Shown here in pieces: positions 8,178 to 64,000 of a DNA stretch of 64,000 bases. This DNA is from Squalus acanthias (lineage: Eukaryota). The position numbers were made by a program, and so were the translations under genes. Numbering within the stretch: the stretch's first letter is position 1; each line of letters starts with the position of its first letter. Below the pieces are notes generated by a model, which saw nothing but the letters and a program-made list of their open reading frames with translations, made no database searches and was not told the DNA's origin. The stretch covers positions 496,001-560,000 of the forward strand of contig JASTWF010000034.1 in NCBI GenBank assembly GCA_030390025.1, written 5' to 3'.

Positions 8178-8401
8178 TTCCAAACACCAAACATGTATAT
8201 TTTGAATACAAAAACTTATTTATTTTACAAACTCTATGTGTGTCATTTCTTCATGACAAACTAATAGAAATAAACACAAAAAAACAGTCATTACCATAAC
8301 TGGTTCTCACAACCTGGAGATAATTTCCAAAACACTAAACAAAAGTTTGACCACGAACCTCGGCCTTTAATAAAAAAATGACCAACATTTTGTCACACCT
8401 C

Positions 8402-27560: not shown

Positions 27561-27679
27561 TACTGTCAGAGCCGAATTCTAGCCGAATTCTAGCCCCTCC
27601 CCTGTGCCTCTTGTTCCCTTGATGCCAATTGTAGAAATCCACCTGTGGCCCTGACGGTAAAATACTAAACTGCTTCTAA

Positions 27680-41112: not shown

Positions 41113-42849
41113 GCGAAAATTCATTGTTTACAGAGCCTTTCATGGAGTATTGGGGTGTTTACAGGGTATTTATCTCATTGATTAATATTTTAAACGTTTT
41201 CCTTTGATTCCTTGGTATCAACCCTGTCCTCCTTTTAATTTTCCTTCCCCTCGGTCAAACAGCATTACATATTTGTCTGGTTAAGATCACTCTTTAGAAA
41301 CAGGTTGTTCGTATTCTTGTTCTGGTTAAAGGGAATAGAGAAATGTACTGGGAATTAAATTCCTGGACTGAGGCGGGAGCAGTGTAAACTAGGTGGCCCT
41401 GGGAATTAAATTTCTGGATTGAGGTGGGTGCAATGTCATGTAGCCGAGTCGCATCGTTCCCTTACTGGGCTCATCTCTCAGATCCTGCCGTTTAGGACCA
41501 TTTCATTATTATTTTTTATCCTGAAGCCTTGCATGGAATAAATCAGAGAACAGGATTGGGGAATCAATTATTTTCAGTGATCTGCACAGAGTGATCCTAA
41601 AAGGAGTGGTTCTAACCAGAATGCTCAGATTGTGAATTTGGAGAGAGTAGGAATTAGGAACAGGAGGGGAAGGAGGAGAGAGCGAGAGGAGCGGCCGGAG
41701 ATAAAGGTAGGTCACAGAACCCGGAGCCCGGAGCGAGCGCAAGGAACGAGGTAAGTGATGTCGGCACAAGCGAAGGCGCTGAAAAGAAAAGAAATGGTGA
41801 GTAGATGGTGTTTTTTTAAGTCGAGTTTAATTCAGTTGATTTAGTTAATAGTCTATTAAAGAGACATGGCAGGGCACCTCAGTCCCGTGGAATGCACATC
41901 TTGTGCCATGTGGGAACTCCAGGACACTTCCCACGGGTTTCGGAGCTTGAGCAGCAGCTGGCGTCACTACGGTGCATCCTTGGGGCTGAGAGCTCCGTGG
42001 ATAGCACGTTCCAAGAGGTGGTCACCCCGCAGCATAAGAGTGTGCAGGCAGAGGGTGAATGGGTGACTGTCAGACAGACAAGGTAGTGCAGGAGTCCCCT
42101 GAGCGCATCTCACTCTCTAACCAGTATTCGATGTTTCCTCTGGGGAGTACAGCCAGAGCCAAGTCCACGGAATCCACGGGGGCTCAGCTGTAGGTGGGGG
42201 AGGAGGAAGATCGGGAAAGCAATAGTGATAGGAAATTAGATAGTTAGGGGAACAGACATTATTTTCTCCGGCCACAGACGTAACCCCAGGATGATATGTT
42301 GCCTCCCTGGTGCCAGGGTCAAGGATGTCACGTTGTGAATGCAGGACATTCTGAGGGGGGCGGGTAAACAGACTGAGGTCGTGGTCCATATTGGTATCAT
42401 CGACATAGGTAGAAAGAGGGATGTGGTCCTGCAGGCAGATAACAGGGAGCCAGGAAAGAGATTAAAAATCAGGACCTCGAAGGTAGTAATCTCCGAATTA
42501 CTCCCGGTGCCACGAACTAGTGAGTACAGAAATAGAAAGATAGAGCAGATGAATGTGTGGCTAGAGAGATGTTGCAGGAGGGAGTGCTTCAGATTCCTGG
42601 GACATTGGGATCGGTTATGGGGGAGTTGGGTCCTTTACAAGCCGGACCTCAACAGAGCCGGATGGAAGGGGCTTGGTTGCTAGTGCTGTTGGAGAGCATT
42701 TAAACTAATCTGCCAGGGGGATGGGCACCTGGATGTGGCATTAGAAAGGAGAAACAAGGTGCACAAAGAATTGTGTGAGACACATAGCAGTAGAGTGAGA
42801 AATAGTACGGTATTAGGTGGGGTCAGGCTAAGAGAGAATCCAAGAAGGA

Positions 42850-43070
42850 CTGAGAAAGAAACAGAAAATGCTGGAAACACTCAGATGGTCACGCAGCGCC
42901 CGTGGAGAGAGAAACAGAGTTAATGTTTCAGGTCTGTGACCCTTAGTCAGAACTGGAAAAAGTTAGAGATGTAACAGTTTGTAAGCAGGTACAAGGGCAG
43001 GGAAAGGGGGGAGGGGAGGATATAACAAAAGGGACGGTCTGTGATAGAGTGGGAGGCAGGAGTGTTTAAA
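42850..43070 (-). mobile_element. Penelope-like terminal fragment nested in CR1
   Basis: aacagaaaatgctggaaacactcag...gtggagagagaaacagagttaatgtttcaggtc; same family as 3385-3520. Confidence 0.55.
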
Positions 43071-43094
43071 TGTTGCAAATGGCGATGGCAGAAT

Positions 43095-43456
43095 CATCAG
43101 GCAGCCAACTTGCGCACAGCAAGCTCCCACAAACAGCAATGTGATAATGATCAGATAAACTTTTTGTTTTATGTTGATTGAGGGATAAATATTTACCAGG
43201 ACACCGGGGATAATTCCATTACACTTCTTCGAACTAGTGCAATGGGATCTTTTAGGTTCACCTGAGAGAGCAGACGTGGCCTCGGTTTAACGTCTCATCT
43301 GAAAGACGGCACCTCCAACAGTGCAGCACTCCCTCAGTACTAAATTGGAGTGTCAGCCTAGATTTATGAGCTCAAGTCCCTGGAATGGGACTTGGAACCC
43401 ACAACCTTCTGACTCAGAGCCGAATGTGCTATCAACTGAGCCACAGCGGACACTGT
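43095..43456 (-). mobile_element. Deu-domain tRNA-derived SINE nested in CR1
   Basis: Reverse complement has head gctgtggctcagttgatagcac...gggttccaagtccc and Deu core gtttgtgggagcttgctgtgcgcaa. Confidence 0.8.
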
Positions 43457-46329
43457 CAGATAGGTTTACAGTGCATGTTTGTAAACGCACAAAGCGTGGT
43501 AAATAAGGTTGGTGAGCTGCAGCCACAACTAGCCACATAGGAACATGATATTGTGACTATAACAGAGACCTGGCTCAAAAAGGGCAGAATTGGGCACTAA
43601 ATATTCCTGGATATAAGATGTTCGAGAAAGATAAGGAAAGAAAGACAGGAGGTGGGATAGCAGTATTGATTGAGGAGAATATTACAGTGCTGGAGAGATA
43701 GGCTGTCTTGGAGGGATCAAGGACAGAATCTATTTGGTTAGACATCAGAAACAATAGAGGTACCATTATACTACTAGGTTTATTCTATAGGCCACCAACT
43801 AGTGGGAAGTATATAGGGGAGCAAATTTGCAGGGAAATTATAGAGAGGTGGAAGAAACATAGAGTAGTGATAATGGGGGACTTCAGTTACCCTAATATAG
43901 ACTGGGATAGTAATAACATAAAGGGCAGAGAGGGGGAAGAATTTCTGAAGTGAGTTCAAGAGAACTTTCTTGTTTGGTGCATTTACAACCCAAAGAGGAA
44001 GGAGGCATTGCTGGAGCTGGTTCTGAGGAATGAGCTAGGTGCCAATAAGGGAACATTTAGGGAACGGTGGTCATAGTATCATATGGTTTAGATTATCTAT
44101 GGAAAAGGACAGGGAGCAATCTAGAGTAAAAATACTTAATTGGGGGAGGGCCAATTTCAGTGGGTTGAGAACGGAGCTGGCTTGGGTAAATTGGATTCAA
44201 AGATTTGCAGGCAAAACTGTAATCGAACAATGGGCTGCCTTTAAAGAAGAGATGATTCAGGTAAAATCGAGGTACATTCACACGAGGGGGTTAAGTAGGG
44301 CAACCAAAGCCAGAGCTCCATGGATGAAGAAAAATATAGAGAATCAGAGGAAGCAGAAAAATGGGGCTTATGCCAGATGTCAAGTTCAGAATATAATTGA
44401 GAACCAGGCTGAATAGAGAAAGTTCAGAGAGGAAGTGGAAAAGGATATAAGAAGGGCACAGAGAGAGTATGAGAATAGATTGGCAGCTAACATAAAATGG
44501 AATCCATAAAGTCTTCTTCAGGCATATAAGTAGTAAACGGATAGTAAGAGGAGGGGTGGAGCTGATTAAGGACCAAAAAGGAGTCCTACGAATGGAGGCA
44601 GAGGGCAAGGCTGAGATACTAAATGAATACTTTGCATCTGTCAATCCCAAGGAAGAAGCTGCTGCCAAAGTCATAGTGAAAGAGGAGGTAGTTGAGGTAC
44701 TGGATGAGCGAAAATTTGATAAAGACTAGCTACTAGTAAGGCGGGCTGTACTTAAAGTAGATAAGTCACCAGGAGCGGATGGGATGCATCCTCGGATGCT
44801 GAGGGAGTTAAGGGTGGAAATTGCAGAGGTACTGGCCATAATCTTCCAATCCTCCTTAGATACGGTGTGGTGCCAGAGGGCTGGAGAATTGCCAATGTTA
44901 CACCCTTGTTCAAAAACGGGTGTAAGGATAAACCAAGCAACTATAAGCCAACCAGTTTAACTTGGTGGTTGGGAAGCTTTTAGAAACGATAATCCTGGAC
45001 AAAATTAACAGGCACTTGGACAAGTGTCGGTTAATTAAGGCAAGCCAGCACGGATTTGTCAAAGGCAAATCGTATTTTAACAAACTTGATCGAGTTTTTT
45101 GATGATTTAACAGAGAGTGTTGATGAGCGCAATGCGGTTGATGTGGTGTACATGGACTTCAAAATGACACGGAGAAAGTGCCACATAATAGACTTGCCAG
45201 CAAAGTTGAAGCCCATGAAATAAAAGGGACAGTGGCAGCATGGATACGGAATTGGCTAAGTGACAGGAAACAGAGAGTAGTGGTGAACGGTTGTTTTCCG
45301 GACTGGAGGAATTACACAGTGGTGTTCGCAAGGATTCGGTACTAGGACCACTGCTTTTCTTGATATATGTTAATGACTTGGACTTGGGGCATAATTTCGA
45401 AATTTGGAGATGACACAAAACTTGGAAGTATAGTGAAAAGTGAGACATAAAATGATAGACTTGAAGAGGACATAAACATGCTGGTCGAATGGGCGGAAAC
45501 GTGGCAGATGATTTTTAACACAGAAAAATGTTAAATAATACATTTTGGTAGGAAGATTCAGGAGAGACAACATAAACTAAAGGGTACGATTATAAAAGGG
45601 GTGCATGAGCAGAGAGACCTGGGGGTATATGTGCACAAATCGTTGAATGTGGCAGGGCAGGTTGTAAAAGCGGTTAGAAAAGCATACAGGATCCTGGGCT
45701 TCATAAATAGAGGCATCGAGTACAGAAACAAGGCAGTTTTGTGATGAAACTGTATAGAACACTTTTCGGCCTCAACTGGAGTATTGTGTCCAATTATGGA
45801 CATCGCACTTTAGGAAGGATTTGAATGCCTTAGAGCGGTGCGGAAATGATTTACAAGAATGATTCCCAGGATTATGGAATTCAGTTACGTGGATAGACTG
45901 CAGAAGCTCGGGTTGTTATCCTTAGAGCAGAGAAGGTTGAGAGGAGATGTGATAGAGGTGTTCAAAATCATGAGGGGTCTGGACAGAACAGATAGAGAGA
46001 AACTGTTCCCATTGGTGGAAAGGTCGCGAATCAGAGGACACAGATTTAAGGTGATTGGCAGAATAACCAAAGGGGACATGAGAAAAAACATTTTATGCAG
46101 CGAGTGGTTAGGATCTGGAATGCACTGCCATAAAGTGTGGTGGAGGCAGATTCAATCGTAGCTTTCAAAAGAGAATTGGATAAGTACCTAAAGAAAATTA
46201 ATTGCATAGCTACGGGGAAAGCGCGTGGGAGTGGAACTTGCTGAAGTGCTCTTGCAGAGAGCTGGCACGGGCTCGACGGGCCGAATGGCCTCCTTCTGCG
46301 TTGTAACCATTCTATGATTCTATCTTTTA

Positions 46330-46795
46330 AGAAAGAAAGACTTGCAATTATATGGAACCTTTCACGACCACCGGATATCTCAAACTGCTTTACAGCCAAT
46401 GAAGTAGTTTCGGAAGTGTAGTCACTGTTGCAGTGTGGGAAACGCAGCAACCAATCTGCGCACAGCAAGCTCCCACAAACAGCAATGTGATGATGACCAG
46501 ATAATTTGTTTCTGTTATGTTGATTGAGGGTTAAATATTGGCCAGTACACCTGGGATAACTCCCCTGCTCCTCTTAAAAATAGCGCCATGGAATATTTTA
46601 TGTCCACCTGAGAGCACAGACGGGGCCTCGATTTAATGTCTCATCCGAAAGACGGCACCCCCGACAGTGCAGCACTCCCTCAGCACTGCAGTGTCAGGCA
46701 AGATGTATGTGCTACAAGTCCTTGGAGTGGGACTTGAACCCACAACCTTCTGAGATCAGAAGCGAGTGTCCTACCCACTGAGCCACAGCTAACAC
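46330..46795 (-). mobile_element. Full-length Deu-domain tRNA-derived SINE (SacSINE1-like)
   Basis: A box tggctcagtgg and B box ggttcaagtcc on the minus strand, Deu core, and a (tttc)n tail. Confidence 0.85.
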
Positions 46796-46894
46796 ATTAT
46801 TCCTCCCTTTTTCTGTCACTTTCTAGTCTTTTGTTCTCAGCTTTAGATCAATACAGGAAGAGAAACTCCCTTCTCTCTGTTCTGCCCTCGGTAT

Positions 46895-47050
46895 TTTTGG
46901 ACTCTACAGGAATCAAGGCATATGAGGATGGGGTGGGTGTGGGGGGAATGTGGATTTGAGGTCGAAGATCAGCCATGATCTTATTCAATGAAGGGCTCGA
47001 AGGGCCGTGTGGCCAACTCCTGCTCCTAATTCTTATATTCTTATGTTTAT
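46895..47050 (+). mobile_element. CR1 3' tail fragment
   Basis: ggaatcaaggcatatg...gatcagccatgatcttatt...ctcctgctcctaattcttatattcttatg. Confidence 0.75.
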
Positions 47051-47327
47051 GGGCGGATGAAATATTGCGCATTCGCTCACTTTTAATTTAAAACTGTGTA
47101 CAATAAGGTGAGCTAAATTGTGTTGCAGTAAAGTGTTGTGGTGACAATGGATCAGTTAGTCTGTTTGTTCAATGACTGTAATTAACGCCAGTTACAGTGA
47201 GGCCTAATGATGTCACTCGGGGATTTCCCTCTGCTCTAAATAAGGAGCTCCCTTCACTGTGTCACCTCACACAGTCAGCGCGCTGCCCCCAGCACAAAGA
47301 CCACCAGACACTCACAGAAGGGAAGGC

Positions 47328-47418
47328 ATGGATTGGAGTGAAGTGCTTAGGATATTAGGAATATGTTACGATATACAAAATATGTACTATCCCCTCCTCA
47401 CTGCTGTTGATGTTCCTC
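47328..47418 (+). CDS. First coding exon of a second GPR139-like GPCR (exon B), possibly pseudogenised
   Basis: MDWSEVLRILGICYDIQNMYYPLLTAVDVP followed by a phase-1 GTAAGG donor. Upstream region and intron start align with exon A. Asp replaces the Gly of the VGxP motif. Confidence 0.6.
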
Positions 47419-47452
47419 GTAAGGATCTATGTCCAGTTATTAATTCTAAGTA

Positions 47453-50400
47453 ATGGAGAGGCCCAGAGAAAGAGCTTGGCGCTTCAGTAACGAGGCATTG
47501 GTGGTTCTGGTTGGCGCTGTGGAACGGCGATGGGCAGTGTTGTTCCCTGAGAGTGGCAGGAGGACATTGCCCCGGGAGTTTGGAAAGGTGTGGAGGGAGG
47601 TGGCTCAGCACATCTCCCCGAGGGGCCTGGTGCCGAGGACCCACACCCAATGTCAGAAAAGTTCAACGACCTCACTCGGGCGGTCAGGGTGATTACCTAC
47701 TTTTCAATACCTCTACATCCCTCCATCTCAACTTCACTCTGTGCCCAGAGGATTTACAAACCCAAATGCCAAACCTATGTCCATCTCATAAAACACACAT
47801 GCACATCTCACACCTTGCGCACATTAATGGCTATTCAACTAGGGGAGACACATCTGCCAAAAACATGGCTGCACACAATAACGGCTGTTCAACTATGCTA
47901 GGCACATCCTGGTGACTCCACGATAGTATGTTGCCTCCCTGGTGCCAGGGTCAAGGATGTCACTGAACGGCTGCAGGGCATTCTGAAGGGGAAGGGCGAA
48001 CTATCAGAGGTCGTGGTTCACATTGGAACCAACGACATAGGTAGAAAGAGGGATGAGGTCCTGCAACAAGAATTTAGGGAGTTAGGAAGCAGATTAAAAA
48101 GCAGGACCTCAAAGGTTGTAATCTCTGGATTGCTCCCGGTGCCACGTGCCAGTGGGTGTAGGAATAAGAGGATAGAGCAGATGAATGCGTGGCTAAAGAG
48201 TTGGTGCAGGAGGGAGGGCTTTAGTTTCCTGGATCACTGGGTCTCCTTCTGGGGAAGGTGGGACCTGTACAAGTCGGACGGGTTGCACCTGAAGCGGAAA
48301 GGGAACAACATCCTTGCGGGGAGGTTTGCTAGTGCTGTTGGTGTGGGGGAGGGGGGTTAAACTAATATGGCAGGGGGATGGGATACGGAATGGAGCTATA
48401 TTAGGGGGTGATGCACAGCCAAATATAGAGAAAAGAACAAGTCAGTCTGGAAGGCAGAGCAAATATGTAACGGCACAAGGGGTTATGGCAAGGCTGGATG
48501 GCATTTATTTTAATGCAAGGAGTCTTGCGAGTAAGGCAGATGAATTGAAGGTGTTGATGAACACATGGGAGTATGATATTGTTGCTATCACAGAGACATG
48601 GTGGAGTAAGGGGCAGGAATGTCAACTCAATATTCCGGGATATAGATCCTTCAGGCGAGACAGAGGGGTTGTAGAAGAGGAGGGGGTGTCGTAATATTAA
48701 TCAAGGAGTCAATTACTGCTGTAAGGAGGGATGATATGTTAGCAGGTTCCTCCAATTAGACCATATGGGTAGACCTTAAAAACAAAAAGGGGGCAGCACT
48801 TTGCTGGGAGTGTCGTATAGATCCCCAAACAGTCAGGGGGAGATAGAGGAACAGATATGTAGGCAAATCTCAGAGATGTGCAGAAAAAATAGGTTAATAA
48901 TAGTGAGGGATTTCAACTTCCCCAATATTAACTGGGATCGTCAGAGTGTGAAACGTTTAGAGGGTGCGGAATTCTTAAAGTTCATCCAGGAGAGCTTTTT
49001 GAGCCAGCATGTAAAAAGTCCTACAAGAGAGGGGGCGGTACTGGACCTAATTCTAGGGAATGTACGCGGGCAAGTGGTAGAAGCGTCAGTAGGAGAGCAT
49101 TTTGGTGACAGTGACTATAATTCGGTGAGATTTAAGGTAGTCTTGGAAAAGGACAAAGATGGACCAGATATAAATGTTCTAAATTGGTGGAAGGCCGATT
49201 TTAATATGATAAGGCAGGATCTGGCTAAAATGGACTGGGGTCAGCTACTTGTAGGAAAATGCACATCAGAGCAGTGGGAGTCATTCAGAAAGGAAATAGA
49301 AAGTGTACAGCGCCAACATGTTCCCGTAAAGGTCAAGGGTGCGACCAACAAGTCCAGGGAACCCTGGATGTCAAGGGATATACAAGAATGGATTAGGAAA
49401 ACAGGGAGCCTTTTGGGAGATACAAAGGACTAAAAACAGTGGAAGCCCTCGAAGGGTATAGAAAGTGCAGGGGGGTACTTAAAAAATTAATTAGGACAGT
49501 GAAGTAGGGACATGAAAAAACACTGGTGGGCTAAATAAAGGAAAATCCCAAGATGTTTTATAATTATATTAAGGGCAAGAGGATAACCATGGAAAGAATA
49601 GCTCCCATTAGGGATCAAAGTGGCAATCTGTGTGTAGAGCCGGAAGATGTAGGTGAGGTTTTAAATGAATATTTTGCATCTGTGTTCATTATGGAGAAGG
49701 ACGATGTAGGCATTGATATTATGCAGGGGGATTGTGATATACTTGAACAACTTAGCATTGAGAGGGTGGAGATACTAGCGGTTTTTAGCGGGCTTTAAAG
49801 TGGATAAATCCACAGGCCCAGACGAGATGTATCCCAGGCTGTTGTGTGAGGCAAGGGTGGAGATTGCAGGGGCTCTGACACAAATTTTCAGAACCTCTCT
49901 GGCCACAGGGGTGGTGCCAGAGGACTGGAGAACCGTTAACATAGTAGCATTGTTCAAGAAGGGTCATAGGGATAAACCAGGGAATTTCAGGCCAGTGAAC
50001 CTAATATCAGTGGTAGAGAAATTATTGGAAAAATTCTGAGGGACAGATTTAGTCTCCACTTGCAGAGGCAAGGATAAACCCAGGATAGTCAGCATGGCTT
50101 CGTCAGGGGGCGATCATGTCTAAGCAATTTGATTGAATTTTTCGAGGGGGTGACCAGGTGTGTAGATGAGGGTAGTGAAGTTGATGTAGTCTACATGGAC
50201 TTCAGTAAGGCTTTTGACAATGTGCCTCATGGGAGACTGGTCAAGAAGATACGTGCCCATGGGATCCAGGGCAATTTGGCACATTGGATGCAAAATTGGC
50301 TTAGTGGCAGCAGCAGAGGATGATGGTCGAAGTTTTTTTTAAACTGGAAGACTGTGTCCAGTGGTGTACTGCAGTGATCGGTGCTTGGTCCTTTGCTGTT

Positions 50401-52838
50401 TGTAGTGTACATTAATGAATTAGATATGAATGTAGGAGGTATGATCAATAAGTTCGCAGATGACACGAAAATTGGTGGAGTGGTAAATAGCGAGGAGGGA
50501 AGCCTGAGGCTACAGGATGATATAGACGGGTTGGTCAGATGGGGAGAACAGTGGCAAATGGAAATTAAACCTGAAAAGTGTGAGGTGATGCATTTTGGGA
50601 GGATTAAGAAGGCAAGGGAATACACAATGAATGGTAGGACCCTAGGAAGGACAGAGGATCAGAGAGACCTTGGTGTGCATGTTCATAGATCCCTGAATGC
50701 AGTAGGACAGGTAGATAAGGTGGTTAAAAAGGCATATTGGATACTTGCCGTCATTAGCCGAGGCATAGAATATAAGAGCAGGGAGGTTATGATGGAGCTG
50801 TATAAAACGTTGGTTAGGCCACAGCTGGAATACTGTGTGCAGTTCTGGTCACCACACTATAGGAGGGATGTGATTGCATTGGAGAGGGTGCAGAGGAGAT
50901 TCACCAGGATGTTACCTGGGCTGGAGCGTTTCGGCAGTGAAGAGAGACTGGACAGGCTGGGGTTGTTTTCCTTAGAGCAGAGAAGGCTGAGAGGGGACCT
51001 GATTGAGGTGTACAAAATTATGAGGGGCTTAGCTAGGGTGGATAAAAAGGAAATTCTTCACTTCGTAGGGGGGTCAATAACCAGGAGCATGGTTTCAAGG
51101 TAAGGGGCAGGAGGTTTAGAGGGGATTTGAGGCAAGAGGGTGGTTGGAATCTGGACCTCACTGTCTGAAAGGATGGTAGAGGCAGGAACGCTCACAACAT
51201 TCAAGAAGCATTTAGATGATCACTTGAAACGCCGTAGCATACAATGCTACGGACCAAGTGCTGGAAAATGGAATTAGAATAGTTAGGTCTTGATGGCCGG
51301 CGCTGACACGATGGGCCAAAAGCCCTCTTTCTGTGCTGTATAACTCGATGACTCTATCTGCCAAACACATGGCTGCACACAATAACGACTATTCAACTAT
51401 GGTAGGCACATCTGCCAAACACATGACCCCACACTCACTCACAAGCTGTCCTTTTTCTTGCAGGCCAAGTTCTCTCATAACAGACGGTAGCAGCAAAGCA
51501 TGGGAGCAGGACCGGCGGACCTACACCTCCTGACTGAGTTGGAGGACAGAGTGCACAGGATCGTTGCCAGCCAGGTCATAGGTGCCGTGGCCGCTGGAGA
51601 GGTCGACCCCCTCGGGACAGCAATGGTATGTTCATCAGCTTTCACTCCTCTCTCACACCTCTTCACCCTCACAACACCAGCCGTTTACACTTTCAATCCT
51701 ACTAACAGTCTCCAGTGCTTGCTCCCTTCCTGCCCCCCTGCCCTTTTGCTAAAGCCAGTCTAGTACATTCCTGCTTTCAGATAGTGAACCACCTGCTGAC
51801 CAGCCTGTCGCTCAGCCTGCCAGTGGCAGCTATGTGCTAGTCGAGGAGGAAGAGGAAGCCGGAGCCTCACCACCTGCATCTCCCAAGGGTGAAACATCAG
51901 ACACTGGGTCCACGCCTTCCCTGGAGGGGAGCAGGGTGTTAGGGTCTGTCAGGGAGAATCTCCTGGACCCAGCGGGCTGCAGCAATGCCATGTGGGTACG
52001 GGAAGCAGGCGCGTGAGTTCTGCTGCACAGGACTTGGATGAGGACCTCGATATCGCGGCCATGAATACCCAGGCCTTGAGCATGAACACTGAGCTGATGG
52101 GTGCAATGGCAAGGGAGCTTGACAGCATGGATACACTGGCTAGGAGCGTGGAGGAGTCCGCCGCTAGCACAGCTGTCATCTGTGTGCAAGACCTTGAACC
52201 CATCCTTGCCTCATTGCAGAGGATGGTTGAATTGCAGGGAGACCGTGGTGAACCAGAGCCGTGTGTAATGGGTGAGGGGGCACGATCCATTGCAGCACAG
52301 GCCAACGCAACGCAATGACATAGTGCTGCAATTCAGTCATTGGATAGTGCCATCCAGTCTCAGACTGCTGTCATGCCGTCTCAGATTGATGTCACGCAAG
52401 CATGAGTACTGCCATCCTCGCAGGGTCACCCACAGTCCCTCAGGGATCTCACGGTGCCGCAGCAGGCCAGCAATCTGTGCTCGTACAGATTGCTCCGGAT
52501 GCTGAGGTTCTGCCCCGGGGGAGTGGCAGTGTGTCGGTCGAACATGAAGGTGCTGCCCCCTCTCAAGATGACAGCATTCCTGTCCCCCAAACGCCACTTC
52601 CCCATTGCACTTGGCACGGCCTGCAACACAGCCAGCCCAGACTGCTGCCGCCCATACAGAGTTGGTGCAGTCAGCAGCCCGGCCCTACAGGCCCAGAGCT
52701 GATCGAGGGCGTCCGTCAAAGCAATCTCTGGATCCAGCTTTCAGCAGCCTTACGTCAGACTTGCTGCAGCCACTGGGGCCACATTTGGAGGAGCAGTAGG
52801 GTGGGAAGGGGGGAAGTGCGCAGGGGATGGAGGACACC
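47453..52838 (+). pseudogene. Second Harbinger Myb/SANT-like gene copy (exons 47453-47688, 51464-51625, 51781-~52838), disrupted
   Basis: MERPRERAWRFSNEALVVLVGAVERR...WREVAQ...QCQK(K)FNDL, with the same splice positions as the copy at 8402-10597. Multiple frameshifts and stops. No TIR or transposase adjacent. Confidence 0.88.
47909..51355 (+). mobile_element. CR1 LINE (ORF1 esterase and ORF2) inserted in intron 1 of the second Myb/SANT copy
   Basis: VHIGTNDIG...DGLHL, YFNARSL, DFNFPNINW, YMDFSKAFD and KFADDTK motifs. Interrupts ggcacatc|tgccaaa with atc repeated on both sides. Confidence 0.95.
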
Positions 52839-55800
52839 CTCGCTGAAGCCAGTGGGGCCACATTAGGAGGAGCAGTAGGGTGGGAAGGGGGGAAGTGCGC
52901 AGGCGATGGAGGACCCCTTTGCTGCAGCCACTGGGGCCACATTAGGAGGAGCAGTAGAGTGGGAAGGGGGAAAGTGCGCAGGGGATGGAGGTCACCCTCG
53001 CTGCAGCCAGTGGGGCCACATTACAGAGGAGCAGTAGGGTGGGAAGGGGGGAAGTGCGCAGGGGATGGAGGTCACCCTCGCTGCAGCCAGTGGGGCCACA
53101 TTACAGAGGAGCAGCAGGGTGGGAAGGGGGGAAGTGCGCAGGGGATGGAGGTCACCCTCGCTGCAGCCACTGGGGCCACATTAGGAGGAGCAGTAGGGTG
53201 GGAAGGGGGAAGAGCGCAGGGGATGGAGGTCACCCTTCGCTGCAGCCACTGGTGCCACATTACAGAGGAGCAGTAGGGTGAGAAGGGGGAAGTGCGCAGG
53301 GGATGGAGGTCACCTTCGCTGCAGCCACTGGTGCCACAATAAAGAGGAGCAGTAGGGTGGGAAGGGGGCAAGTACGCAGGGGATGGAGGTCACCCTCGCT
53401 GCAGCCAGTGGACCCACATTAGGAGGAGCAGTAGGGTGGGAACGGGGGAAGAGCGCAGGGGGTGGAGGTCACCCTTGCTGCAGCCACTGGGGCCACATTA
53501 GGAGGAGCAGCAGTTTGGGAAGGGGGTAAGTGCGCAGGGGATGGAGGTCACCCTTGCTGCAGCCACTGGGGCCACATTAGGAGGAGCAGCAGTTTGGGAA
53601 GGGGGTAAGTGCGCAGGGGATGGAGGTCACCCTTACTGCAGCCAGTGGACCCACATTAGGAGGAGCAGTAGGGTGGGAAGGGGGGAAGTGCACAGGGGAT
53701 GGAGGTCACCCTCGCTGCAGCCACTGGGGCCACATTAGGAGGAGCAGTAGGGTGGGAAGTGGGAAGTGAGCAGGGGATAGAGGTCACCATTGCTGCAGCC
53801 ACTGGGGCCACATTAGGAGGAGCAGTAGGGTGGTAAGGGGGGAAGTGCGCAGGGGGTGGAGGTCACCCTTCCTGCAGCCAGTGGGGCCCCATTAGGAGGA
53901 GCAGTAGGGTGGGAAGGGGGGATATGCTAAGGGGATGGAGGTCACCCTTGCTGTTTCCAGTAGGGCCACATTACAGAGGAGCAGTAGGGTGGGAAGAGGG
54001 GAAGTGCGCAGGGGGTGGAGGTCACCCTTGCTGCAGCCACTGGGGCCACATTAGGAGGAGCAGTAGGGTGGGAAGGGGGGAGGTGCGCAGGGGGTGGAGG
54101 TCACACTTGCTGCAGCCAGTGGGGCCACATTAGGAGGAGAAGTAGTGTGGGAAGGGGGAAGCGCGCAGGGGATGGAGGTCACTCTCGCTGCAGCCACTGG
54201 GCCGACATTAGGAGGAGCAGAAGGGTGGGAAAGGGGGAAGTGCGCAGGGGATGGAGGTCACCCTTGCTGCAGCCACTGGGGCCACATTAGGAGGAGCAGT
54301 AGGGTGGGAAGGGGGGAAGTGCGCAGGGGATGGAGGTCACCCTCGCTGCAGCCACTGGGGCCACATTATAGAAGAGCAGTAGGGTGGGAAGGTGGAAGTG
54401 CGCAGGGGATGGAGGTCACCCTTGCTGCAGCCATGGGGCCACATTAGGAGGAGCAGTAGGGTGGGAAGTAGGGAAGTGCGCAGGGGATGGAGGTCACCCT
54501 TGCTGCAGTCAGTGGCGCCACATTAGGAGGAGCAGTAGGGTGGGAAGGGGGGAAGTGCGCAGGGGATGGAGGTCACCCTCTCTGCAGCCACTGGGGCCAG
54601 ATTACAGAGGAGCAGTAGGGTGGGAACGGGGCGGTGGGCCGGGGGTGGAGGTCACCCTTGCTGCAGCCAATGGGGCCACATTAGGAGGAGCAGTAGGGTG
54701 GGAAGGGGGGAACCGCGCAGGGGATGGAGGTCACCCTCGCTGCAGCCACTGGGGCCAGATTAGGAGGAGCAGTAGGGTGGGAACGGGGCGGTGGGCCGGG
54801 GGTGGAGGTCACCCTTGCTGCAGCCAATGGGGCCACATTAGGAGGTTCAGTAGGGTGGGAAGGGGGGAAGTGGGCAGAGGATGGAAGTCACCCTTGCTGC
54901 AGCCAGTGGTGCCACAATAGGAGGAGCAGCAGGGTGGGAAGGCGGGGAAGTGCGCAGGGGGTGGAGGTCACCCTCGCTGCAGCCAGTGGGGCCACATTAC
55001 AGAGGAACAGTAGGGTGGGAAGGGAGGAAATGCGCAGGGGATGGAGGTCACCCTTGCTGCAGCCACTAGGGCCACATTAGGAGGAGCAGGAAGGTGGGAA
55101 GGGAGGAAATGCGCAGGGGATGGAGGTCACCCTCGCTGCAGCCACTGGGGGCACGTTAGGAGGAGCAGTAGGGTGGGAAGGGGGAAAGTGCGCAGGGGAT
55201 GGAGGTCACCCTTGCTGCAGCCACTCGGGCCACATTAGGAGGAGCAGTGGAGTGGGAAGTTAGGAACTGAGCAGGGGATGGAGGTCACCCTCGCTGCAGC
55301 CAGTGGGGCCATATTACAGAAGAGCAGTAGGGAGGGAACGGGGGAAATGCGCAGGGGATGGAGGTCACACTTGCTGCAGCCACTGGGGCCACATTAGGAG
55401 GAGCAGTAGGGTGGGAAGAGGGGATGTGCGCAGGGGATGGAGGTCACCCTTGCTGCAGCCACTGGGGCCACATTACAGAGGAGCAGTAGGGTGGGAAGGG
55501 GGGAAGTGCGCAGGGGATGGAGGTCACCATTGCTGCAGCCACTGGGACCACATTAGGAGAAGCAGTAGGACGGGAAGAGGGGAAGTGCGCAGTGGATGGA
55601 GGACACCCTTGCTGCAGCCAGTGGGGCCACATTAGAAGTAACAGCTGTTTGGGAAGGGGGGATGTGCGCAGGGGTTGGAGGTCACCCTTGAAGCAGCCAC
55701 TGGGGCCACATTCGGTGTAGCAGAAGGGGGAGAAGTCCGCAGGGGTTGGAGGTCACACTCGCTGCAGCCTCTGGGACAACATTACAGAGGAGGAGTAGGG

Positions 55801-58800
55801 TGGGAAGGGTGGAAGTGCGCAGGGGGTGGAGGTCACCCTTGCTGCAGCCACTGGGGCCACATTAGGAGGAGCAATAGGGTGGGAAGGGGGGAAGTGCGCA
55901 GGGGAGGGAGGTAACCATTGCTGCAGCCACTGGGGCCACATTAGGAGGAGCAGTAGGGTGGGAAGGGGGGAAGTGCGCAGGGGATGGAGGTCACCCTTCC
56001 TGCAGCCAGTGGGTCCACATTACAGAGGAGCAGTAGGGGGGGAAGTGGGGAAGTGCGCATGGGATGGAGGTCACCATCGCTGCAGCCAGTAGAGCCACAT
56101 TACAGAGGAGCAGTAGGGTGGGAAGAGGTGAAGTGCGCAGGGGGTGGAGGTCACCCTTGCTGCAGCCACAGGGGCCACATTAGGAGGAGCAGTAGGGTGG
56201 GAAGGGGGGAAGTGCGCAGGGGATGGAGGTCACACTTGCTGCAGCCAGTGGGGCCACATTAGGAGGAGAAGTAGTGTGGGAAGGGGGAAGCGCGCAGGGG
56301 ATGGAGGTCACTCTCGCTGCAGCCACTGGGCCGACATTAGGAGGAGCAGGAGGGCGGGAAGGGGGGTAATGCGCAGGGGATGTAGGTCACCCTTGCTGCA
56401 GCCACTGGGGCCACATTACAGAGGAGCAGTAGGGTGGGAGGGGGGGAGGTGGGCCGGAGGTGGAAGTCACCCTTGCTGCAGCCACTGGGGCCACATTCGG
56501 TGGAGCAGAAGGGGGTAAGTGCGCTGGGGATGGAGGTCACCCTCGCTGCAGCCACTGGGGCCATATTACAGAGGAGCAGTAGGGTGGGAAGGCTGGAGGT
56601 GCGCAGGGGATGGAGGTCACCCTCGCTGCAGCCACTGGGGCCACATTACAGAGGAGCAGTAGGGTGGGAAGGTGGAAGTGCGCAGGGGATGGAGGTCACC
56701 CTTGCTGCAGCCACTGGGGCCACATTAGGAGGAGCAGTAGGTTGGGAACGGGGCGGTGGGCCGGGGGTGGAGGTCACCCTTGCTGCAGCCAATGGGGTCA
56801 CATTAGGAGGTTCAGTAGGGTGGGAAGGGGGGAAGTGCGCAGGGGATGGAGGTCACCCTCGCTGCAGCCAGTGGTGCCACATTAGGAGGAGCAGCAGTGT
56901 GGGAAGGGGGGAAGTGCGCAGGGGGTGGAGGTCACCCTCGCTGCAGCCAGTGGTGCCACATTAGGAGGACCATCAGGGTGGGAAGGGGGGAAGTGCACCG
57001 GGGATGGAGGTCACACTTGCAGCAGCCACTGGGGCCACATTAGGAGGAGCAGTAGGGTGCGAAGTTGGGGGAAGTGCGCAGGGGATGGAGGTCACCCTTG
57101 CTGCAGCCACTGGGGGCACATTAGGAGGAGCAGTAGGGTGGGAAGGGGGAAAGTGCGCAGGGGATGGAGGTCACCTTTGCTGCAGCCACTGGGGCCACAT
57201 TAGGAGGAGCAGTAGGGTGGGAAGGGGGAAAGTGCGCAGGGGATGGAGGTCAACGCTGCTGCAGCCACTTGGGCCACATTAGGAGGAGCAGTAGAGTGGG
57301 AAGGTGGGAAGTGCACAGGGGATGGACGTCACCCTCGCTGCAGCCACTGGGGCCACATTACAGAGGAGCAGTAGGGTGGGAAGGGGGGATATGCGCAGGG
57401 GATGGATGTCACCCTCGCTGCAGCCAGTGGGGCCACATTACAGAAGAGCAGGAGCGAGGGAACGGGGGAAATGCGCAGGGGATGGAGGTCACGCTTGCTG
57501 CAGCCACTGGGGCCACATTCGGAGGAGCAGTAGGGTGGGAAGAGGGAAGTGCGCAGGGGATGGAGGTCACCCTCGCTGCAGCCACTGGGGCCACATGAGG
57601 AGGAGCAGTAGGGTGGGAAGGGGGGAAGTGCGCAGGGGATGGAGGTCACCCTCGCTGCAACCAGTGGGCCCACATTACAGAGGAGCAGTAGGGTGGGAAG
57701 GGGGGAAGTGCGCAGAGGGTGGAGGTCACCCGTTTGCAGCCAGTGGGGCCACATTCGGAGGAGCAGTCGGGTGGGAAGGGGGAACCGCGCAGGGGATGGA
57801 GGTCACCCTCGCTGCAGCCACTGGGGCCACATTCGGAGGAGCAGTAGGGTGGGAAGGGGGAACCGCGCAGGGGATGGAGGTCACCCTCGCTGCAGCCACT
57901 GGGGCCACATTACAGAGGAGCAGTAGGGTGGGAAGGGGGGAAGTGCGCAGGGGATGGAGGTCACCCTTGCTGCAGCCACTGGGACCACATTAGGAGGAGC
58001 AGTTGGGCGGGAAGGGGGGAAGTGCGCAGGGGATGGAGGACACCCTTGCTGCAGCCAGTGGGGCCACATTAGGAGGAACAGCTGTTTGGGAAGGGGGGAT
58101 GTGCGCAGGGCTTGGACTCACCCTTGCTGCAGCCAGTGGGGCCACATTAGGAGGAACAGCTGTTTGGGAAGGGGGGATGTGCGCACGGGTTGGAGTTCAC
58201 CCTTGCTGCAGCCACTGGGGCCACATTCGGTGTAGCAGAAGGGGGGGAAGTCCGCAGGGGATGGAGGTGACCCTCGCTGCAGCCACTGGGACAACATTAC
58301 AAAGGAGGAGTAGGGTGGGAAGGGTGTAAGTGCGCAGGGAGTGGAGGTCACCATTGCTGCAGCCACTGGGGCCACATTAGGGGAGCAGTAGGGTGGGAAG
58401 GGGGGAAGTGCGCAGGGGATGGAGGTCATCCTTGCTGCAGCCAGTGGTGCCACATTAGGAGGAGCAGTAGGGTGGGAAGGGGGGAAGTGCGCAGGGGATA
58501 GAGGTCACCCTTGCTGCAGCCAGTGGTGCCACATTAGGAGGAGCAGTAGGGTGGGAAGGGGGGAAGTGCGCAGGGGATGGATGTCACCCTCGCTGCAGCC
58601 ACTGGGGCCACATTACAGAGGAGCAGTAGGGTGGGAAGGGGGGAAGTGCGCAGGGGATGGTGGTCAGCCTTGCTGCAGCCAGTGGGGCCACATTACAGAG
58701 GAACAGTAGGGTGGGAAGGGGGGAAGTGCGCAGTGGGTGGAGGTCACGCTCGCTGCAGCCACTGGGGCCACATTAGGAGGAGCAGTAGGGTGGGAAGGGG

Positions 58801-61800
58801 GGAAGTGCGCAGGGGATGGAAGTCACACTTGCTGCAGCCACTGGGGCCACATTGGGAGGAGCAGTAGGGTGGGAAGGGGGAAAGTGCGCAGGGGATGGAG
58901 GTCAACGCTGCTGCAGCCACTTGGGCCACATTAGGAGGAGCAGTAGAGTGGGAAGGTGGGAAGTGCACAGGGGATGGAGGTCACCCTCGCTGCAGCCACT
59001 GGGGCCACATTACAGAGGAGCAGTAGGGTGGGAAGGGGGGATATGCGCAGGGGATGGATGTCACCCTCGCTGCAGCCAGTGGGGCCACATTACAGAAGAG
59101 CAGGAGCGAGGGAACGGGGGAAATGCGCAGGGGATGGAGGTCACGCTTGCTGCAGCCACTGGGGCCACATTAGGAGGAGCAGTAGGGTGGGAAGGGGGGA
59201 AGTGCGCAGGGGATGGAGGTCACCCTTGCTGCAGCCACTGGGGATACATTAGGAGGAGCAGTAGGGTGGGAAGGGGGAAAGTGCGCAGAGGATGGAGGTC
59301 ACCCTCGCTGCAGCCACTGGGGCCACATTAGGAGGAGCAGTAGGGTGGGAAGAGGGAAGTGCGCAGGGGATGGAGGTCACCCTCGCTGCAGCCAGTGGGC
59401 CCACATTACAGAGGAGCAGTAGGGTGGGAAGGGGGGAAGTGCGCAGGGGGTGGAGGTCACCCTCGCTGCAGCCAGTGGTGCCACATTAGGAGGACCATCA
59501 GGGTGGGAAGGGGGGAAGTGCACCGGGGATGGAGGTCACACTTGCAGCAGCCACTGGGGCCACATTAGGAGGAGCAGTAGGGTGCGAAGTTGGGGGAAGT
59601 GCGCAGGGGATGGAGGTCACCCTTGCTGCAGCCACTGGGGGCACATTAGGAGGAGCAGTAGGGTGGGAAGGGGGAAAGTGCGCAGGGGATGGAGGTCACC
59701 TTTGCTGCAGCCACTGGGGCCACATTAGGAGGAGCAGTAGGGTGGGAAGGGGGAAAGTGCGCAGGGGATGGAGGTCAACGCTGCTGCAGCCACTTGGGCC
59801 ACATTAGGAGGAGCAGTAGAGTGGGAAGGTGGGAAGTGCACAGGGGATGGACGTCACCCTCGCTGCAGCCACTGGGGCCACATTACAGAGGAGCAGTAGG
59901 GTGGGAAGGGGGGATATGCGCAGGGGATGGATGTCACCCTCGCTGCAGCCAGTGGGGCCACATTACAGAAGAGCAGGAGCGAGGGAACGGGGGAAATGCG
60001 CAGGGGATGGAGGTCACGCTTGCTGCAGCCACTGGGGCCACATTCGGAGGAGCAGTAGGGTGGGAAGAGGGAAGTGCGCAGGGGATGGAGGTCACCCTCG
60101 CTGCAGCCACTGGGGCCACATGAGGAGGAGCAGTAGGGTGGGAAGGGGGGAAGTGCGCAGGGGATGGAGGTCACCCTCGCTGCAACCAGTGGGCCCACAT
60201 TACAGAGGAGCAGTAGGGTGGGAAGGGGGGAAGTGCGCAGAGGGTGGAGGTCACCCGTTTGCAGCCAGTGGGGCCACATTCGGAGGAGCAGTCGGGTGGG
60301 AAGGGGGAACCGCGCAGGGGATGGAGGTCACCCTCGCTGCAGCCACTGGGGCCACATTCGGAGGAGCAGTAGGGTGGGAAGGGGGAACCGCGCAGGGGAT
60401 GGAGGTCACCCTCGCTGCAGCCACTGGGGCCACATTACAGAGGAGCAGTAGGGTGGGAAGGGGGGAAGTGCGCAGGGGATGGAGGTCACCCTTGCTGCAG
60501 CCACTGGGACCACATTAGGAGGAGCAGTAGGGCGGGAAGGGGGGAAGTGCGCAGGGGATGGAGGACACCCTTGCTGCAGCCAGTGGGGCCACATTAGGAG
60601 GAACAGCTGTTTGGGAAGGGGGGATGTGCGCAGGGCTTGGAGGTCACCCTTGCTGCAGCCAGTGGGGCCACATTAGGAGGAACAGCTGTTTGGGAAGGGG
60701 GGATGTGCGCACGGGTTGGAGGTCACCCTTGCTGCAGCCACTGGGGCCACATTCGGTGTAGCAGAAGGGGGGGAAGTCCGCAGGGGATGGAGGTCACCCT
60801 CGCTGCAGCCACTGGGACAACATTACAGAGGAGGAGTAGGGTGGGAAGGGTGTAAGTGCGCAGGGAGTGGAGGTCACCATTGCTGCAGCCACTGGGGCCA
60901 CATTAGGAGGAGCAGTAGGGTGGGAAGGGGGGGAAGTGCGCAGGGGATGGAGGTCATCCTTGCTGCAGCCAGTGGTGCCACATTAGGAGGAGCAGTAGGG
61001 TGGGAAGGGGGGAAGTGCGCAGGGGATGGAGGTCACCCTTGCTGCAGCCAGTGGTGCCACATTAGGAGGAGCAGTAGGGTGGGAAGGGGGGAAGTGCGCA
61101 GGGGATGGAGGTCACCCTCGCTGCAGCCACTGGGGCCACATTACAGAGGAGCAGTAGGGTGGGAAGGGGGGAAGTGCGCAGGGGATGGAGGTCAGCCTTG
61201 CTGCAGCCAGTGGGGCCACATTACAGAGGAACAGTAGGGTGGGAAGGGGGGAAGTGCGCAGTGGGTGGAGGTCACGCTCGCTGCAGCCACTGGGGCCACA
61301 TTAGGAGGAGCAGTAGGGTGGGAAGGGGGGAAGTGCGCAGGGGATTTAAGTCACACTTGCTGCAGCCACTGGGGCCACATTGGGAGGAGCAGTAGGGTGG
61401 GAAGGGGGAAGTGCGCAGGGGATGGAGGTCAACGCTGCTGCAGCCACTTGGGCCACATTAGGAGGAGCAGTAGAGTGGGAAGGTGGGAAGTGCACAGGGG
61501 ATGGAGGTCACCCTCGCTGCAGCCACTGGGGCCACATTACAGAGGAGCAGTAGGGTGGGAAGGGGGGATATGCGCAGGGGATGGATGTCACCCTCGCTGC
61601 AGCCAGTGGGGCCACATTACAGAAGAGCAGGAGCGAGGGAACGGGGGAAATGCGCAGGGGATGGAGGTCACGCTTGCTGCAGCCACTGGGGCCACATTAG
61701 GAGGAGCAGTAGGGTGGGAAGGGGGGAAGTGCGCAGGGGATGGAGGTCACCCTTGCTGCAGCCACTGGGGATACATTAGGAGGAGCAGTAGGGTGGGAAG

Positions 61801-64000
61801 GGGGAAAGTGCGCAGGGGATGGAGGTCACCCTCGCTGCAGCCACTGGGGCCACATTAGGAGGAGCAGTAGGGTGGGAAGAGGGAAGTGCGCAGGGGATGG
61901 AGGTCACCCTCGCTGCAGCCAGTGGGCCCACATTACAGAGGAGCAGTAGGGTGGGAAGGGGGGAAGTGCGCAGGGGGTGGAGGTCACCCGTTTGCAGCCA
62001 GTGGGGCCACATTCGGAGGAGCAGTAGGGTGGGAAGGGGGAACAGCGCAGGGGATGGAGGTCACCCTCGCTGCAGCCACTGGGGCCACATTAGGAGGAGC
62101 AGTAGGGTGGGAAGGGGGTAAGTGCGCAGGGGGTGGAGGTCACCCTCGCTGCAGCCACTGGGGCCACATTAGGTGGAGCAGTAGGGTGGGAATTGGGGAA
62201 GTGCGCAGGGGGTGGAGGTCACCCTTGCTGCAGCCACTGGGACCACATCAGGAGGAGCACTAGGGCGGGAAGGGGGGAAGTGCGCAGGGGATGGAGGACT
62301 CCCTTGCTGCAGCCAGTTGGGCCACATTAGGAGGAACAGCTGTTTGGGAAGGGGGGATGTGCGCAGGGGTTGGAGGTCACCCTTGCTGCAGCCACTGGGG
62401 CCACATTCGGTGTAGCAGAAGGGGGGGAAGTCCGCAGGGGATGGAGGTCACCCTCGCTGCAGCCACTGGGACAACATTACAGAGGAGGAGTAGGGTGGGG
62501 AGGGTGTAAGTGCGCAGGGAGTGGAGGTCATCATTGCTGCAGCCACTGGGGCCACATTAGGAGGAGCAGTAGCGTGGGAAGGGGGGAAGTGCGCAGGGGG
62601 TGGAGGTCACCCTTGCTGCAGCCAGTAGGGCCACATTACAGAGGAGCAGTAGGGTGGGAAGAGGGGATGTGCGCAGGGGGTGGAGGTCACACTTGCTGCA
62701 GCTACTGGGGCCACATTAGGAGGAGCAATAGGGTGGGAAGGGGGGAAGTGCGCAGGGGATGGAGGTCACTCTCGCTGCAGCCACTGGGCCACATTATGAG
62801 GAGCAGTAGGGTGTTAAGGGGGGGAAGTGCGCAGGGGATGGAGTTCACCCTTGCTGCAGCCAGTGGTGCCACATTAGGAGGAGCAGTAGGCTGGGAAGTG
62901 GGGAAGTGCGCAGGGGATGGAGGTCACCCTTGCTGCAGCCAGTGGGGCCACATTAGGAGGAGCAGTAGGGTGGGAAGGGGGGAAGTGCGCAGGGGATGGA
63001 GGTCACCCTCGCTGCAGCCACTGGGGCCACATTACAGAGGAGCAGTAGGGTGGGAAGGGGGGAAGAGCGCAGGGGATGGAGATCAGCCTTGCTGCAGCCA
63101 GTGGGGCCACATTACAGAGGAACAGTAGGGTGGGAAGTGGGGAAGTGCGCAGTGGGTGGAGGTCACCCTCGCTGCAGCCACTGGGGCCACATTAGGAGGA
63201 GCAGTAGGGTGGGAAGGGGGGAAGTGCGCAGGGGATGGAGGTCACACTTGCTGCAGCCACTGGGGCCACATTAGGAGGAGCAGTAGGGTGGGAAGGGGGG
63301 AAGTGCGCAGGGGATGGAGGTCACACTTGCTGCAGCCACTGGGGCCACATTAGGAGGAGCAGTAGGGTGCGAAGTGGGGGGAAGTGCGCAGGGGATGGAG
63401 GTCACCCTCGCTGCAGCCACTGGGGCCACATTAGGAGGAGCAGTAGGGTGGGAAGGGGGGAAGTGCGCAGGGGATTGAGGTCACCCTTGCTGCAGCCACT
63501 GGGGCCACATTAGGAGGAGCAGTAGGGTGGGAAGGGGGGAAGTGCGCAGGGGATGGAGGTCACACTTGCTGCAGCCACTGGGGCCACATTAGGAGGAGCA
63601 GTAGGGTGCGAAGTGGGGGGAAGTGCGCAGGGGATGGAGGTCACCCTCGCTGCAGCCACTGGGGCCACATTAGGAGGAGCAGTAGGGTGGGAAGGGGGGA
63701 AGTGCGCAGGGGATTGAGGTCACCCTTGCTGCAGCCACTGGGGCCACATTAGGAGGAGCAGTAGGGTGGGAAGGGGGAAAAGTGCGCAGGGGATGGAGGT
63801 CACCCTTGCTGCAGCCACTGGGGGCTACATTCGGAGGAGCATTAGGGTGGGAAGGGGGAAAGTGCGCAGGGGATGGAGGTCACCCTTGCTATAGCCACTG
63901 GGGGCACATTAGGAGGAGCAGTAGGGTGGTAAGGGGGAAAGTGCGCAGGGGATGGAGGTCACCCTTGCTGCAGCCACTGGGGCCACATTACAGAGGAGCA
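52760..64000. repeat. Satellite E, 79/80 bp G-rich unit, ~140 copies, running off the window end
   Basis: Unit cttgctgcagccactggggccacatta(g/ca)gaggagcagtagggtgggaaggggggaagtgcgcaggggatggaggtcacc. Confidence 0.98.

What the first reader, a model, noticed from the sequence alone, without database searches (positions are those of the whole stretch)
52760..64000. An >11 kb satellite derived from the last 80 coding bases of a Harbinger Myb/SANT gene
Seen: exon 3 of the second Myb/SANT copy runs without a junction into the first monomer. The 80 bp monomer matches the reverse complement of 8421-8500, the single-copy C-terminus (LAAATEVPLRRSSRVRRGEVRKGRRSP) of the other Harbinger copy, at 71/80 positions by manual alignment. 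The unit ends are microhomologous (cagccttg vs caccctcg), which gives a plausible seed for the first duplication. The unamplified state and the amplified array are both in this window. Known: TE-derived satellites exist, often from termini, UTRs or MITEs. Inference: the array arose in situ from the coding exon of the accessory gene. Units of 79 and 80 bp are not multiples of 3, so this is not a protein repeat.
Basis: partly seen in the sequence, partly recalled or inferred. Interest (0 to 1): 0.88.

Follow-up and report, generated by a model that had tools for sequence, protein, structure and literature searches.

The report
Satellite born inside dead Harbinger transposon
An 80-base piece from the end of a jumping gene's helper-protein code was doubled once in a broken copy, grew into tandem arrays up to about 38 kb long, and spread when the surrounding DNA was duplicated; this origin for repeat DNA is already known, but this case is unusually well preserved.

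Summary
Observation confirmed with small corrections. The 79/80-bp array is 17.8 kb long (225.5 units). It continues exon 3 of a LINE-disrupted Harbinger Myb/SANT gene that has lost one terminal repeat. The direction is transposon to satellite. All 38 dispersed copies examined hold one unit, whose consensus reads in frame and differs from the array consensus at 2 of 80 positions. Eight of 15 arrays keep both native Harbinger flanks. All 1237 exact junction matches genome-wide lie in those 15 arrays, about 177 kb in total. The arrays and 10 single-unit copies are paralogues of one segmentally duplicated dead insertion. So the array was most likely born once and spread by duplication and crossover, not by transposition. 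The window's copy may have acquired its array rather than founded it. The 6/8 microhomology and a G-quadruplex motif are weak leads. Precedent: CACTA Jozin tnp2 to CficCl-61-40 (PMC7320549). The scan earlier noted a LINE-derived array on other DNA of this genome (e1-7857509). Verdict: new member of a known kind; interest 0.38.

The parts
52760..64000 (+). 79/80-bp G-rich tandem array; continues to window-equivalent 70573 (G000:C2671:566573), where a LINE fragment cuts it off
52760..52839 (+). First unit, at the native position of the C-terminal coding segment of exon 3; carries the 1-bp-short form
51781..52759 (+). Exon 3 remnant of the second Harbinger Myb/SANT gene (7-14 stops in each frame; 7-bp deletion shared with all 10 single-unit paralogues)
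51464..51625 (+). Exon 2 remnant, 162 nt (154 and 163 nt, both 3n+1, in dispersed copies L161 and L162); bounds read from AG/GT sites, not RNA
47909..51355 (+). LINE inserted in intron 1 (GDSL-type ORF1, endonuclease, reverse transcriptase; CR1-type by recalled motifs), shared with the paralogues
47449..47908 (+). Exon 1 remnant and start of intron 1; the element's first ~358 bp, with the Myb-side terminal repeat, are missing
41605..47448 (.). Non-Harbinger flank shared at 84-99% with other array and single-unit loci: part of the segmentally duplicated block
6435..10950 (.). First Harbinger copy, more distant subfamily, both ends present: Myb/SANT gene on minus (exons 10358-10597, 9537-9698, 8402-9378), DDE transposase on plus (about 6955-8177, split by a frameshift and a stop)
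8421..8500 (-). Single in-frame homologue of the unit in the first copy, 16 nt before the stop codon

Best explanation
A selfish, probably functionless minisatellite-type array. (1, shown) An abundant Harbinger subfamily has this 80-bp segment once, as the near-last codons of its three-exon Myb/SANT gene. (2, shown) One insertion lost its Myb-side end, took a LINE in intron 1 and was multiplied inside a segmental duplication of at least about 20 kb, giving at least 25 paralogous loci on small contigs rich in tandem repeats. (3, inferred) In one paralogue lineage the segment was doubled once, probably by slippage or repair at an imperfect 8-bp microhomology beside a G-quadruplex-type motif. (4, partly shown) Unequal exchange and gene conversion then took arrays to 27-488 units, shuffled the variants inside units and swapped flanks between paralogues. 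A single-unit paralogue can gain an array by crossover in the unit, as the window's copy may have done. An array can also fall back to one unit, as two loci appear to have done. Eight other single-unit loci look never amplified but have exchanged variants with the arrays.
For: Single unit in 38 of 38 dispersed loci; consensus 2 of 80 positions from the array consensus; exon phases and frame open through the unit in L161. Eight of 15 arrays have exon 3 on the left and the native stop region plus transposase end on the right. 1237 of 1237 exact junction matches lie in the 15 arrays; 22 of 22 matches to the dispersed-type junction lie in known arrays. 13 of 15 arrays, and 5 of 5 singles fetched widely (of 10), share non-Harbinger upstream flank. 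The 22 such loci with a right flank form one clade, 100/100, apart from 9 dispersed copies. All 15 arrays share one consensus apart from position 12, and one variant set. Variants are nearly unlinked (r at most 0.14). Left and right flank trees disagree for C3707 and C1637. Loci with 99.5-99.9% identical flanks hold 53 vs 84 and 197 vs 133 units. Right flank: a 1-bp deletion and an A>G are in 12 of 12 arrays and 2 of 2 C2671 singles, but in 0 of 8 other singles and 0 of 26 dispersed copies. Other tandem repeats cover 23.8% of the window's neighbourhood and 11.7% of paralogue stretches, against 1.3-2.1% around dispersed copies. The 79/80 go-back joint is in 3 of 4 public runs laid.
Against: The seed is not shown. 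497 equally good 6/8 microhomologies exist in the same 900 bp. The G4Hunter rank (top tile of 34 in 26 of 38 copies) is one non-independent observation, noticed after the fact. Only 12 of 225 units fit the strict short-loop G4 pattern; 158 of 225 fit with loops up to 12 nt. One birth followed by exchange cannot be fully told from several births later homogenised. No array unit shows the ancestral sequence at positions 26-27, which a simple one-parent duplication does not predict. Closure rests on one exact 23-nt pattern, so diverged arrays would be missed. The dispersed loci were top-scoring hits, not a random sample. Some near-identical loci may be alleles or haplotigs.
Confidence: 0.85

Rival explanations
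1. The satellite is older and the Harbinger family captured one monomer as its C-terminus.
For: None found. An old satellite could in principle have been lost elsewhere.
Against: Homology runs without a break across both unit ends into a subfamily only 72-78% alike. The unit is in frame and followed by the native stop. No arrays were found outside the paralogue family. Run X9 (organism D) holds the unit but showed no go-back joint (contigs cannot prove absence).
Confidence: 0.02
2. Arrays were spread by transposition of a non-autonomous Harbinger carrying the array, as with MITE- or Helitron-borne repeats.
For: The parent family is abundant (thousands of first-look candidates). Twelve arrays keep part of the transposase side, and the far terminal region was found in several paralogues.
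Against: Array loci share kilobases of flank outside the element. No paralogue stretch matched the Myb-side end. No junction match was listed on chromosome-scale contigs.
Confidence: 0.03
3. Several independent births at a sequence hotspot in different paralogues, later homogenised by exchange.
For: Array state needs 2-3 changes on the flank trees. Two junction spellings exist. The unit has microhomology and a G-rich motif.
Against: One unit length and phase, one variant set, and two derived right-flank changes in 12 of 12 arrays. No duplication in 38 dispersed copies and none found by pattern. The two junction spellings differ by a CpG transition.
Confidence: 0.07
4. All 10 single-unit paralogues are collapsed arrays: the array predates the whole segmental duplication.
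For: 0 of 10 singles keep the ancestral positions 26-27. They carry array variants absent from 38 dispersed copies (12G 4 of 10, 55T56A 6 of 10, 67G 3 of 10), in combinations that violate the four-gamete test.
Against: Eight of the 10 keep the ancestral right flank at three sites where 10-12 of 12 arrays are derived, and share their own C>A found in 0 of 12 arrays. The 10 loci represent only about 5 haplotypes.
Confidence: 0.25
5. The array has been kept for a chromosomal function such as centromere or heterochromatin seeding.
For: Arrays reach 30-38 kb and three are cut off by contig ends or N.
Against: About 177 kb in total, 0.005% of the assembly; no strong higher-order period; copy number swings between near-identical loci; one of many unrelated arrays in the region.
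Confidence: 0.04

Closest known systems
CficCl-61-40 satellite from the tnp2 transposase of CACTA-like Jozin, Chenopodium (PMC7320549; abstract and passages read)
   Same: A short coding fragment of a DNA transposon serves as start monomer of an adjoining array, at 82-95% identity to the parent.
   Different: Here the parent is the Harbinger accessory Myb/SANT gene, not a transposase. Both flanks survive in 8 arrays. Evidence points to one birth spread by segmental duplication, whereas the Jozin paper proposes continuous replenishment. Abundance is 0.005% against up to 3.8% of the genome.
ORF-derived satellites listed in the review PMC9659126 (passages and part of Table 1 read): chicken HinfI from CR1, PROsat from L1 ORF2, rye satellite with a gag fragment
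   Same: Tandem repeats derived from coding parts of transposable elements.
   Different: Those parents are retroelements; the review's text has no occurrence of 'Harbinger'.
Microhomology-mediated tandem duplication (PMC13167724; passages read)
   Same: Birth of a tandem duplication between short direct repeats, with ready reversion.
   Different: The homology here is imperfect (6 of 8) and only modestly above chance; the event is inferred.
G-quadruplex-forming human minisatellites CEB1 and CEB25 (PMC7063842; passages read)
   Same: G-rich strand-biased unit; instability there partly depends on G4 formation, and short loops raise it.
   Different: G4 folding is only predicted here, and most units need a loop over 7 nt.

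Membership tests
PIF/Harbinger DNA transposon (parent element) | DDE transposase plus separate Myb/SANT protein | tested here: met
   First copy: DDE_Tnp_4 E 3.8e-24 and Myb_DNA-bind_5 E 7e-10; L161 exon 1 Myb_DNA-bind_5 E 5.7e-07. The array copy is filed by DNA similarity.
PIF/Harbinger DNA transposon (parent element) | Short terminal inverted repeats at both ends | tested here: met
   First copy and dispersed copies show G-run inverted ends. The array-bearing copy lacks the Myb-side end, so it is a remnant.
PIF/Harbinger DNA transposon (parent element) | 3-bp target-site duplication (recalled) | tested here: inconclusive
   First copy is flanked by different triplets and different satellites; not testable for the truncated copy.
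Transposon-derived satellite (Jozin type) | Monomer homologous to a single-copy segment of the parent and contiguous with it | tested here: met
Transposon-derived satellite (Jozin type) | Repeated generation of new arrays from many parent copies (proposed in PMC7320549) | tested here: not met
   38 of 38 dispersed copies single; all junction matches in one paralogue family. It works like Jozin in origin, not in renewal.
Minisatellite / VNTR-type array | Unit under 100 bp, variable copy number, interspersed shuffled variants (recalled definition) | tested here: met
   1 and 27-488 units across paralogues; variants nearly unlinked
Minisatellite / VNTR-type array | Length polymorphism between individuals at one locus | not testable with these tools
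   Only short contigs of public runs were available.
Classical heterochromatic or centromeric satellite | Very large, abundant arrays | tested here: not met
   About 2,230 units, 177 kb, 0.005% of the assembly; three arrays are incomplete
Classical heterochromatic or centromeric satellite | Chromosomal position and chromatin state | not testable with these tools
   Needs FISH or ChIP.
Mobile-element-borne tandem repeat (MITE or Helitron dispersal) | Arrays inside intact mobile copies with unrelated flanks | tested here: not met
   Shared external flanks and missing terminal repeat

The most novel reading that the evidence does not exclude
The family records a whole satellite life cycle in one genome. 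The first duplication was a two-parent dimer, made by unequal crossover at the microhomology between two already diverged paralogues, one with the 80-bp CpG-decayed unit and one with the 79-bp unit; this would explain why no array unit has the ancestral sequence there. Single-unit paralogues then catch the array by crossover inside the unit, and arrays revert to solo units. The G-quadruplex motif chose the segment and the repeat-prone region allowed the growth.
Probability: 0.25. Interest if true: 0.58.

Novelty: new member of a known kind. Interest (0 to 1): 0.38.

Why it matters
Most claims that a satellite came from a transposon rest on similarity alone. Here the parent family, single-unit sister loci, arrays bracketed by both native flanks, recombinant loci and probable revertants coexist, and the family seems fully enumerated in this assembly. 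That makes it a clean natural test of whether local sequence or genomic region decides where satellites are born: the same segment in many chromosomal copies stayed single, and one copy in a repeat-rich duplicated region grew. It shows no new biological function.

Tried and rejected
Harbinger right half beyond the window's array: none in 73 kb. Higher-order repeat: only weak dips at lags 17-33; TRF's 318-bp period is a multiple of the unit. Zinc-finger gene as driver of the duplication: linker motif found only beside the window's own locus, not in the other paralogue stretches held; the full extent of the duplicated block stays unknown. Independent duplication in dispersed copies: none. I first read all singles as collapsed arrays; flank sites argued against this for 8 of 10. 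A fourth right-flank site that I counted by eye as 11 of 12 in my notes is 9 of 12 and absent from the two C2671 singles, so I dropped it. The first columns of the right-flank alignments carry a 1-base offset and were ignored; the zero counts for C3364a were an indexing error, corrected. Automatic splicing failed; only 2 of 6 dispersed copies could be parsed, L161 in frame and L163 frameshifted. Expression: no RNA holder listed. Literature: 8 searches (listings and abstract starts only, apart from the five papers read in passages) listed no paper on a satellite from a Harbinger Myb gene; subscription journals and repeat databases were not searched. No supplements were opened. Protein homologue searches and folding were not run, as they do not bear on the question.
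Full report
Observation. TRF finds a period-79 array at 52760-64000 (142.5 copies). Neighbouring genome stretches extend it to window-equivalent 70573, 17.8 kb and 225.5 units, where a reverse-strand LINE fragment cuts it mid-unit. Window 51368-52842 aligns to the reverse complement of 8417-9794 at 72-78% and passes into the first unit without a break. The first copy (6435-10950) is a Harbinger with a Myb_DNA-bind_5 exon and a DDE_Tnp_4 transposase facing each other. The second copy is dead: it starts about 358 bp into the element, holds a 3.4-kb LINE in intron 1, and has stops in all frames of exon 3.

Direction. The genome is 3.7 Gb; earlier scan notes call it shark, which I did not test. 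The Harbinger family is abundant (3571 and 3429 first-look candidates). All 38 dispersed loci examined hold one unit; they were top hits, not a random draw. Their consensus differs from the consensus of 2182 array units at two positions, a deletion at 26 and one substitution. It reads in frame to a stop a few codons later. In dispersed copy L161 exon phases and frame are open from the Myb domain through the unit. Of 15 arrays, 11 begin at exon 3, three at deletion junctions into the intron LINE, and one runs into N. Twelve end in the native stop region and transposase end, one at a LINE, two at contig ends. Eight have both native flanks. The satellite therefore came from the transposon.

Extent. 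An exact 23-nt junction pattern has 1237 matches genome-wide; 1220 + 11 + 6 = 1237 lie in the 15 arrays. A pattern for the dispersed-type junction has 22 matches, all in known arrays. Sizes run from 27 to about 488 units, about 2,230 units or 177 kb in all (sum), 0.005% of the assembly, with three arrays incomplete. Diverged arrays without the exact pattern would be missed. The 79/80 go-back joint is present in runs X1 and X2 (organism A, two samples) and X6 (organism B), and not seen in X9 (organism D), which holds the unit. The junction is thus not an assembly artefact; X1 may be the assembly's own source, and contigs cannot show absence.

Spread. Thirteen of 15 arrays, and all 5 singles fetched widely (of 10), share non-Harbinger flank upstream; C3452 was fetched only as far as the shared intron LINE, and C3364a could not be read on that side. 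Shared sequence reaches about 11 kb upstream and 8 kb downstream. The 22 loci with a right flank form one clade (100/100) apart from 9 dispersed copies. No paralogue stretch matched the Myb-side end. These are segmental duplicates of one immobile insertion. Other tandem repeats cover 23.8% of the window's neighbourhood and 11.7% of paralogue stretches, against 1.3-2.1% around dispersed copies. A paper on shark genomes reports more tandem repeats on small chromosomes (10.1101/2022.10.17.512540, passages); the contigs here are not placed, so the link is an inference.

Turnover. All arrays share one consensus (apart from position 12) and one variant set. Variants are almost unlinked (r at most 0.14), as expected from exchange inside units. 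Left and right flank trees disagree for C3707 and C1637, and C3364b has the reciprocal pairing. Loci with 99.5-99.9% identical flanks hold 53 vs 84 and 197 vs 133 units; they may be alleles or recent duplicates.

Single-unit paralogues. None of the 10 keeps the ancestral positions 26-27, and they carry array variants seen in 0 of 38 dispersed copies, in recombinant combinations. That suggested collapse. But a 1-bp deletion and an A>G just right of the unit are in 12 of 12 arrays and the two C2671 singles near 2.9 Mb, and in 0 of the other 8 singles, which share a C>A found in no array. I read the two as probable collapsed arrays and the eight as never-amplified sisters that exchanged variants; collapse of all ten is not excluded. 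The window's exon 3 has the 7-bp-deletion haplotype of all 10 singles, shared by 5 of 11 arrays with a left flank. The window's copy may thus have gained its array by crossover; its right flank is lost, so this cannot be checked.

Seed. The unit ends share 6 of 8 bases; 3.3% of random 50-120-bp duplications in this exon would match as well, and 497 such pairs exist in 900 bp. The unit is the top G4Hunter tile of 34 in 26 of 38 copies, but these copies share one ancestor, and only 12 of 225 units fit a short-loop G4 pattern. Both are leads. No array unit shows the ancestral 26-27 sequence, which fits a two-parent first dimer or early loss; this is inference.

Comparison. A coding fragment of a DNA transposon serving as start monomer of an adjoining array is described for CACTA Jozin (PMC7320549, abstract and passages). 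ORF-derived satellites are reviewed in PMC9659126 (passages). Microhomology-mediated duplication and reversion are general (PMC13167724, passages), and G4-dependent minisatellite instability is known (PMC7063842, passages). Eight searches listed no Harbinger-Myb case; that library omits most subscription papers. An earlier scan note reports a LINE-derived 60-kb array in this genome (e1-7857509, not checked), which suggests such births recur here.

Verdict. Real, correctly interpreted in its main claim, and a new member of a known kind. Its value is as a complete, countable case of satellite birth and spread. No function is indicated. Interest 0.38.

Noticed in passing
window 9729-10220: The 54-bp unit in intron 1 is itself variable in the family: 9 copies here, 1-4 per element in 6 dispersed copies and the paralogues, up to about 6 in other dispersed loci. 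A second, family-wide tandem repeat inside the same gene.
   Followed up: partly
window 6435-10950: The first Harbinger copy has a 32-bp satellite on one side and a 52-bp satellite on the other, with unequal flanking triplets; perhaps a recombinant of two insertions or a flank deletion. Its exon 2 is 162 nt, one base short of the family phase.
   Followed up: partly
window 10953-17771: A 52-bp AT-rich satellite of about 6.8 kb abuts the Harbinger end exactly.
   Followed up: no
window 27673-28386, 31937-32926, 37204-39559: Further unrelated arrays with 29- and 31-bp units; origins not examined.
   Followed up: no
L023-L028 (window-equivalent 82782-144000): Many other arrays (27, 28, 31, 32, 34, 39, 40, 46, 67 bp) and a C2H2 zinc-finger stretch at about 88900-89530.
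   Followed up: partly
L064-L067 (C2671 near 3.35 Mb; C3259) and L109-L110 (C3385): Deletions join the intron LINE directly to the array, removing exons 2-3; the C3259 and C2671 copies share one junction, C3385 has another.
   Followed up: partly
L018 and L019, about 150 bp after the unit: A second Harbinger end appears just after the stop region in L018, and a second Myb-gene match follows in both loci: a nested or adjacent insertion on C30.
   Followed up: no
L089/L090 and L084/L085 on C2671: Identical single-unit paralogue pairs in opposite orientation, about 46 kb and 2 Mb apart: inverted duplications or assembly duplicates.
   Followed up: no
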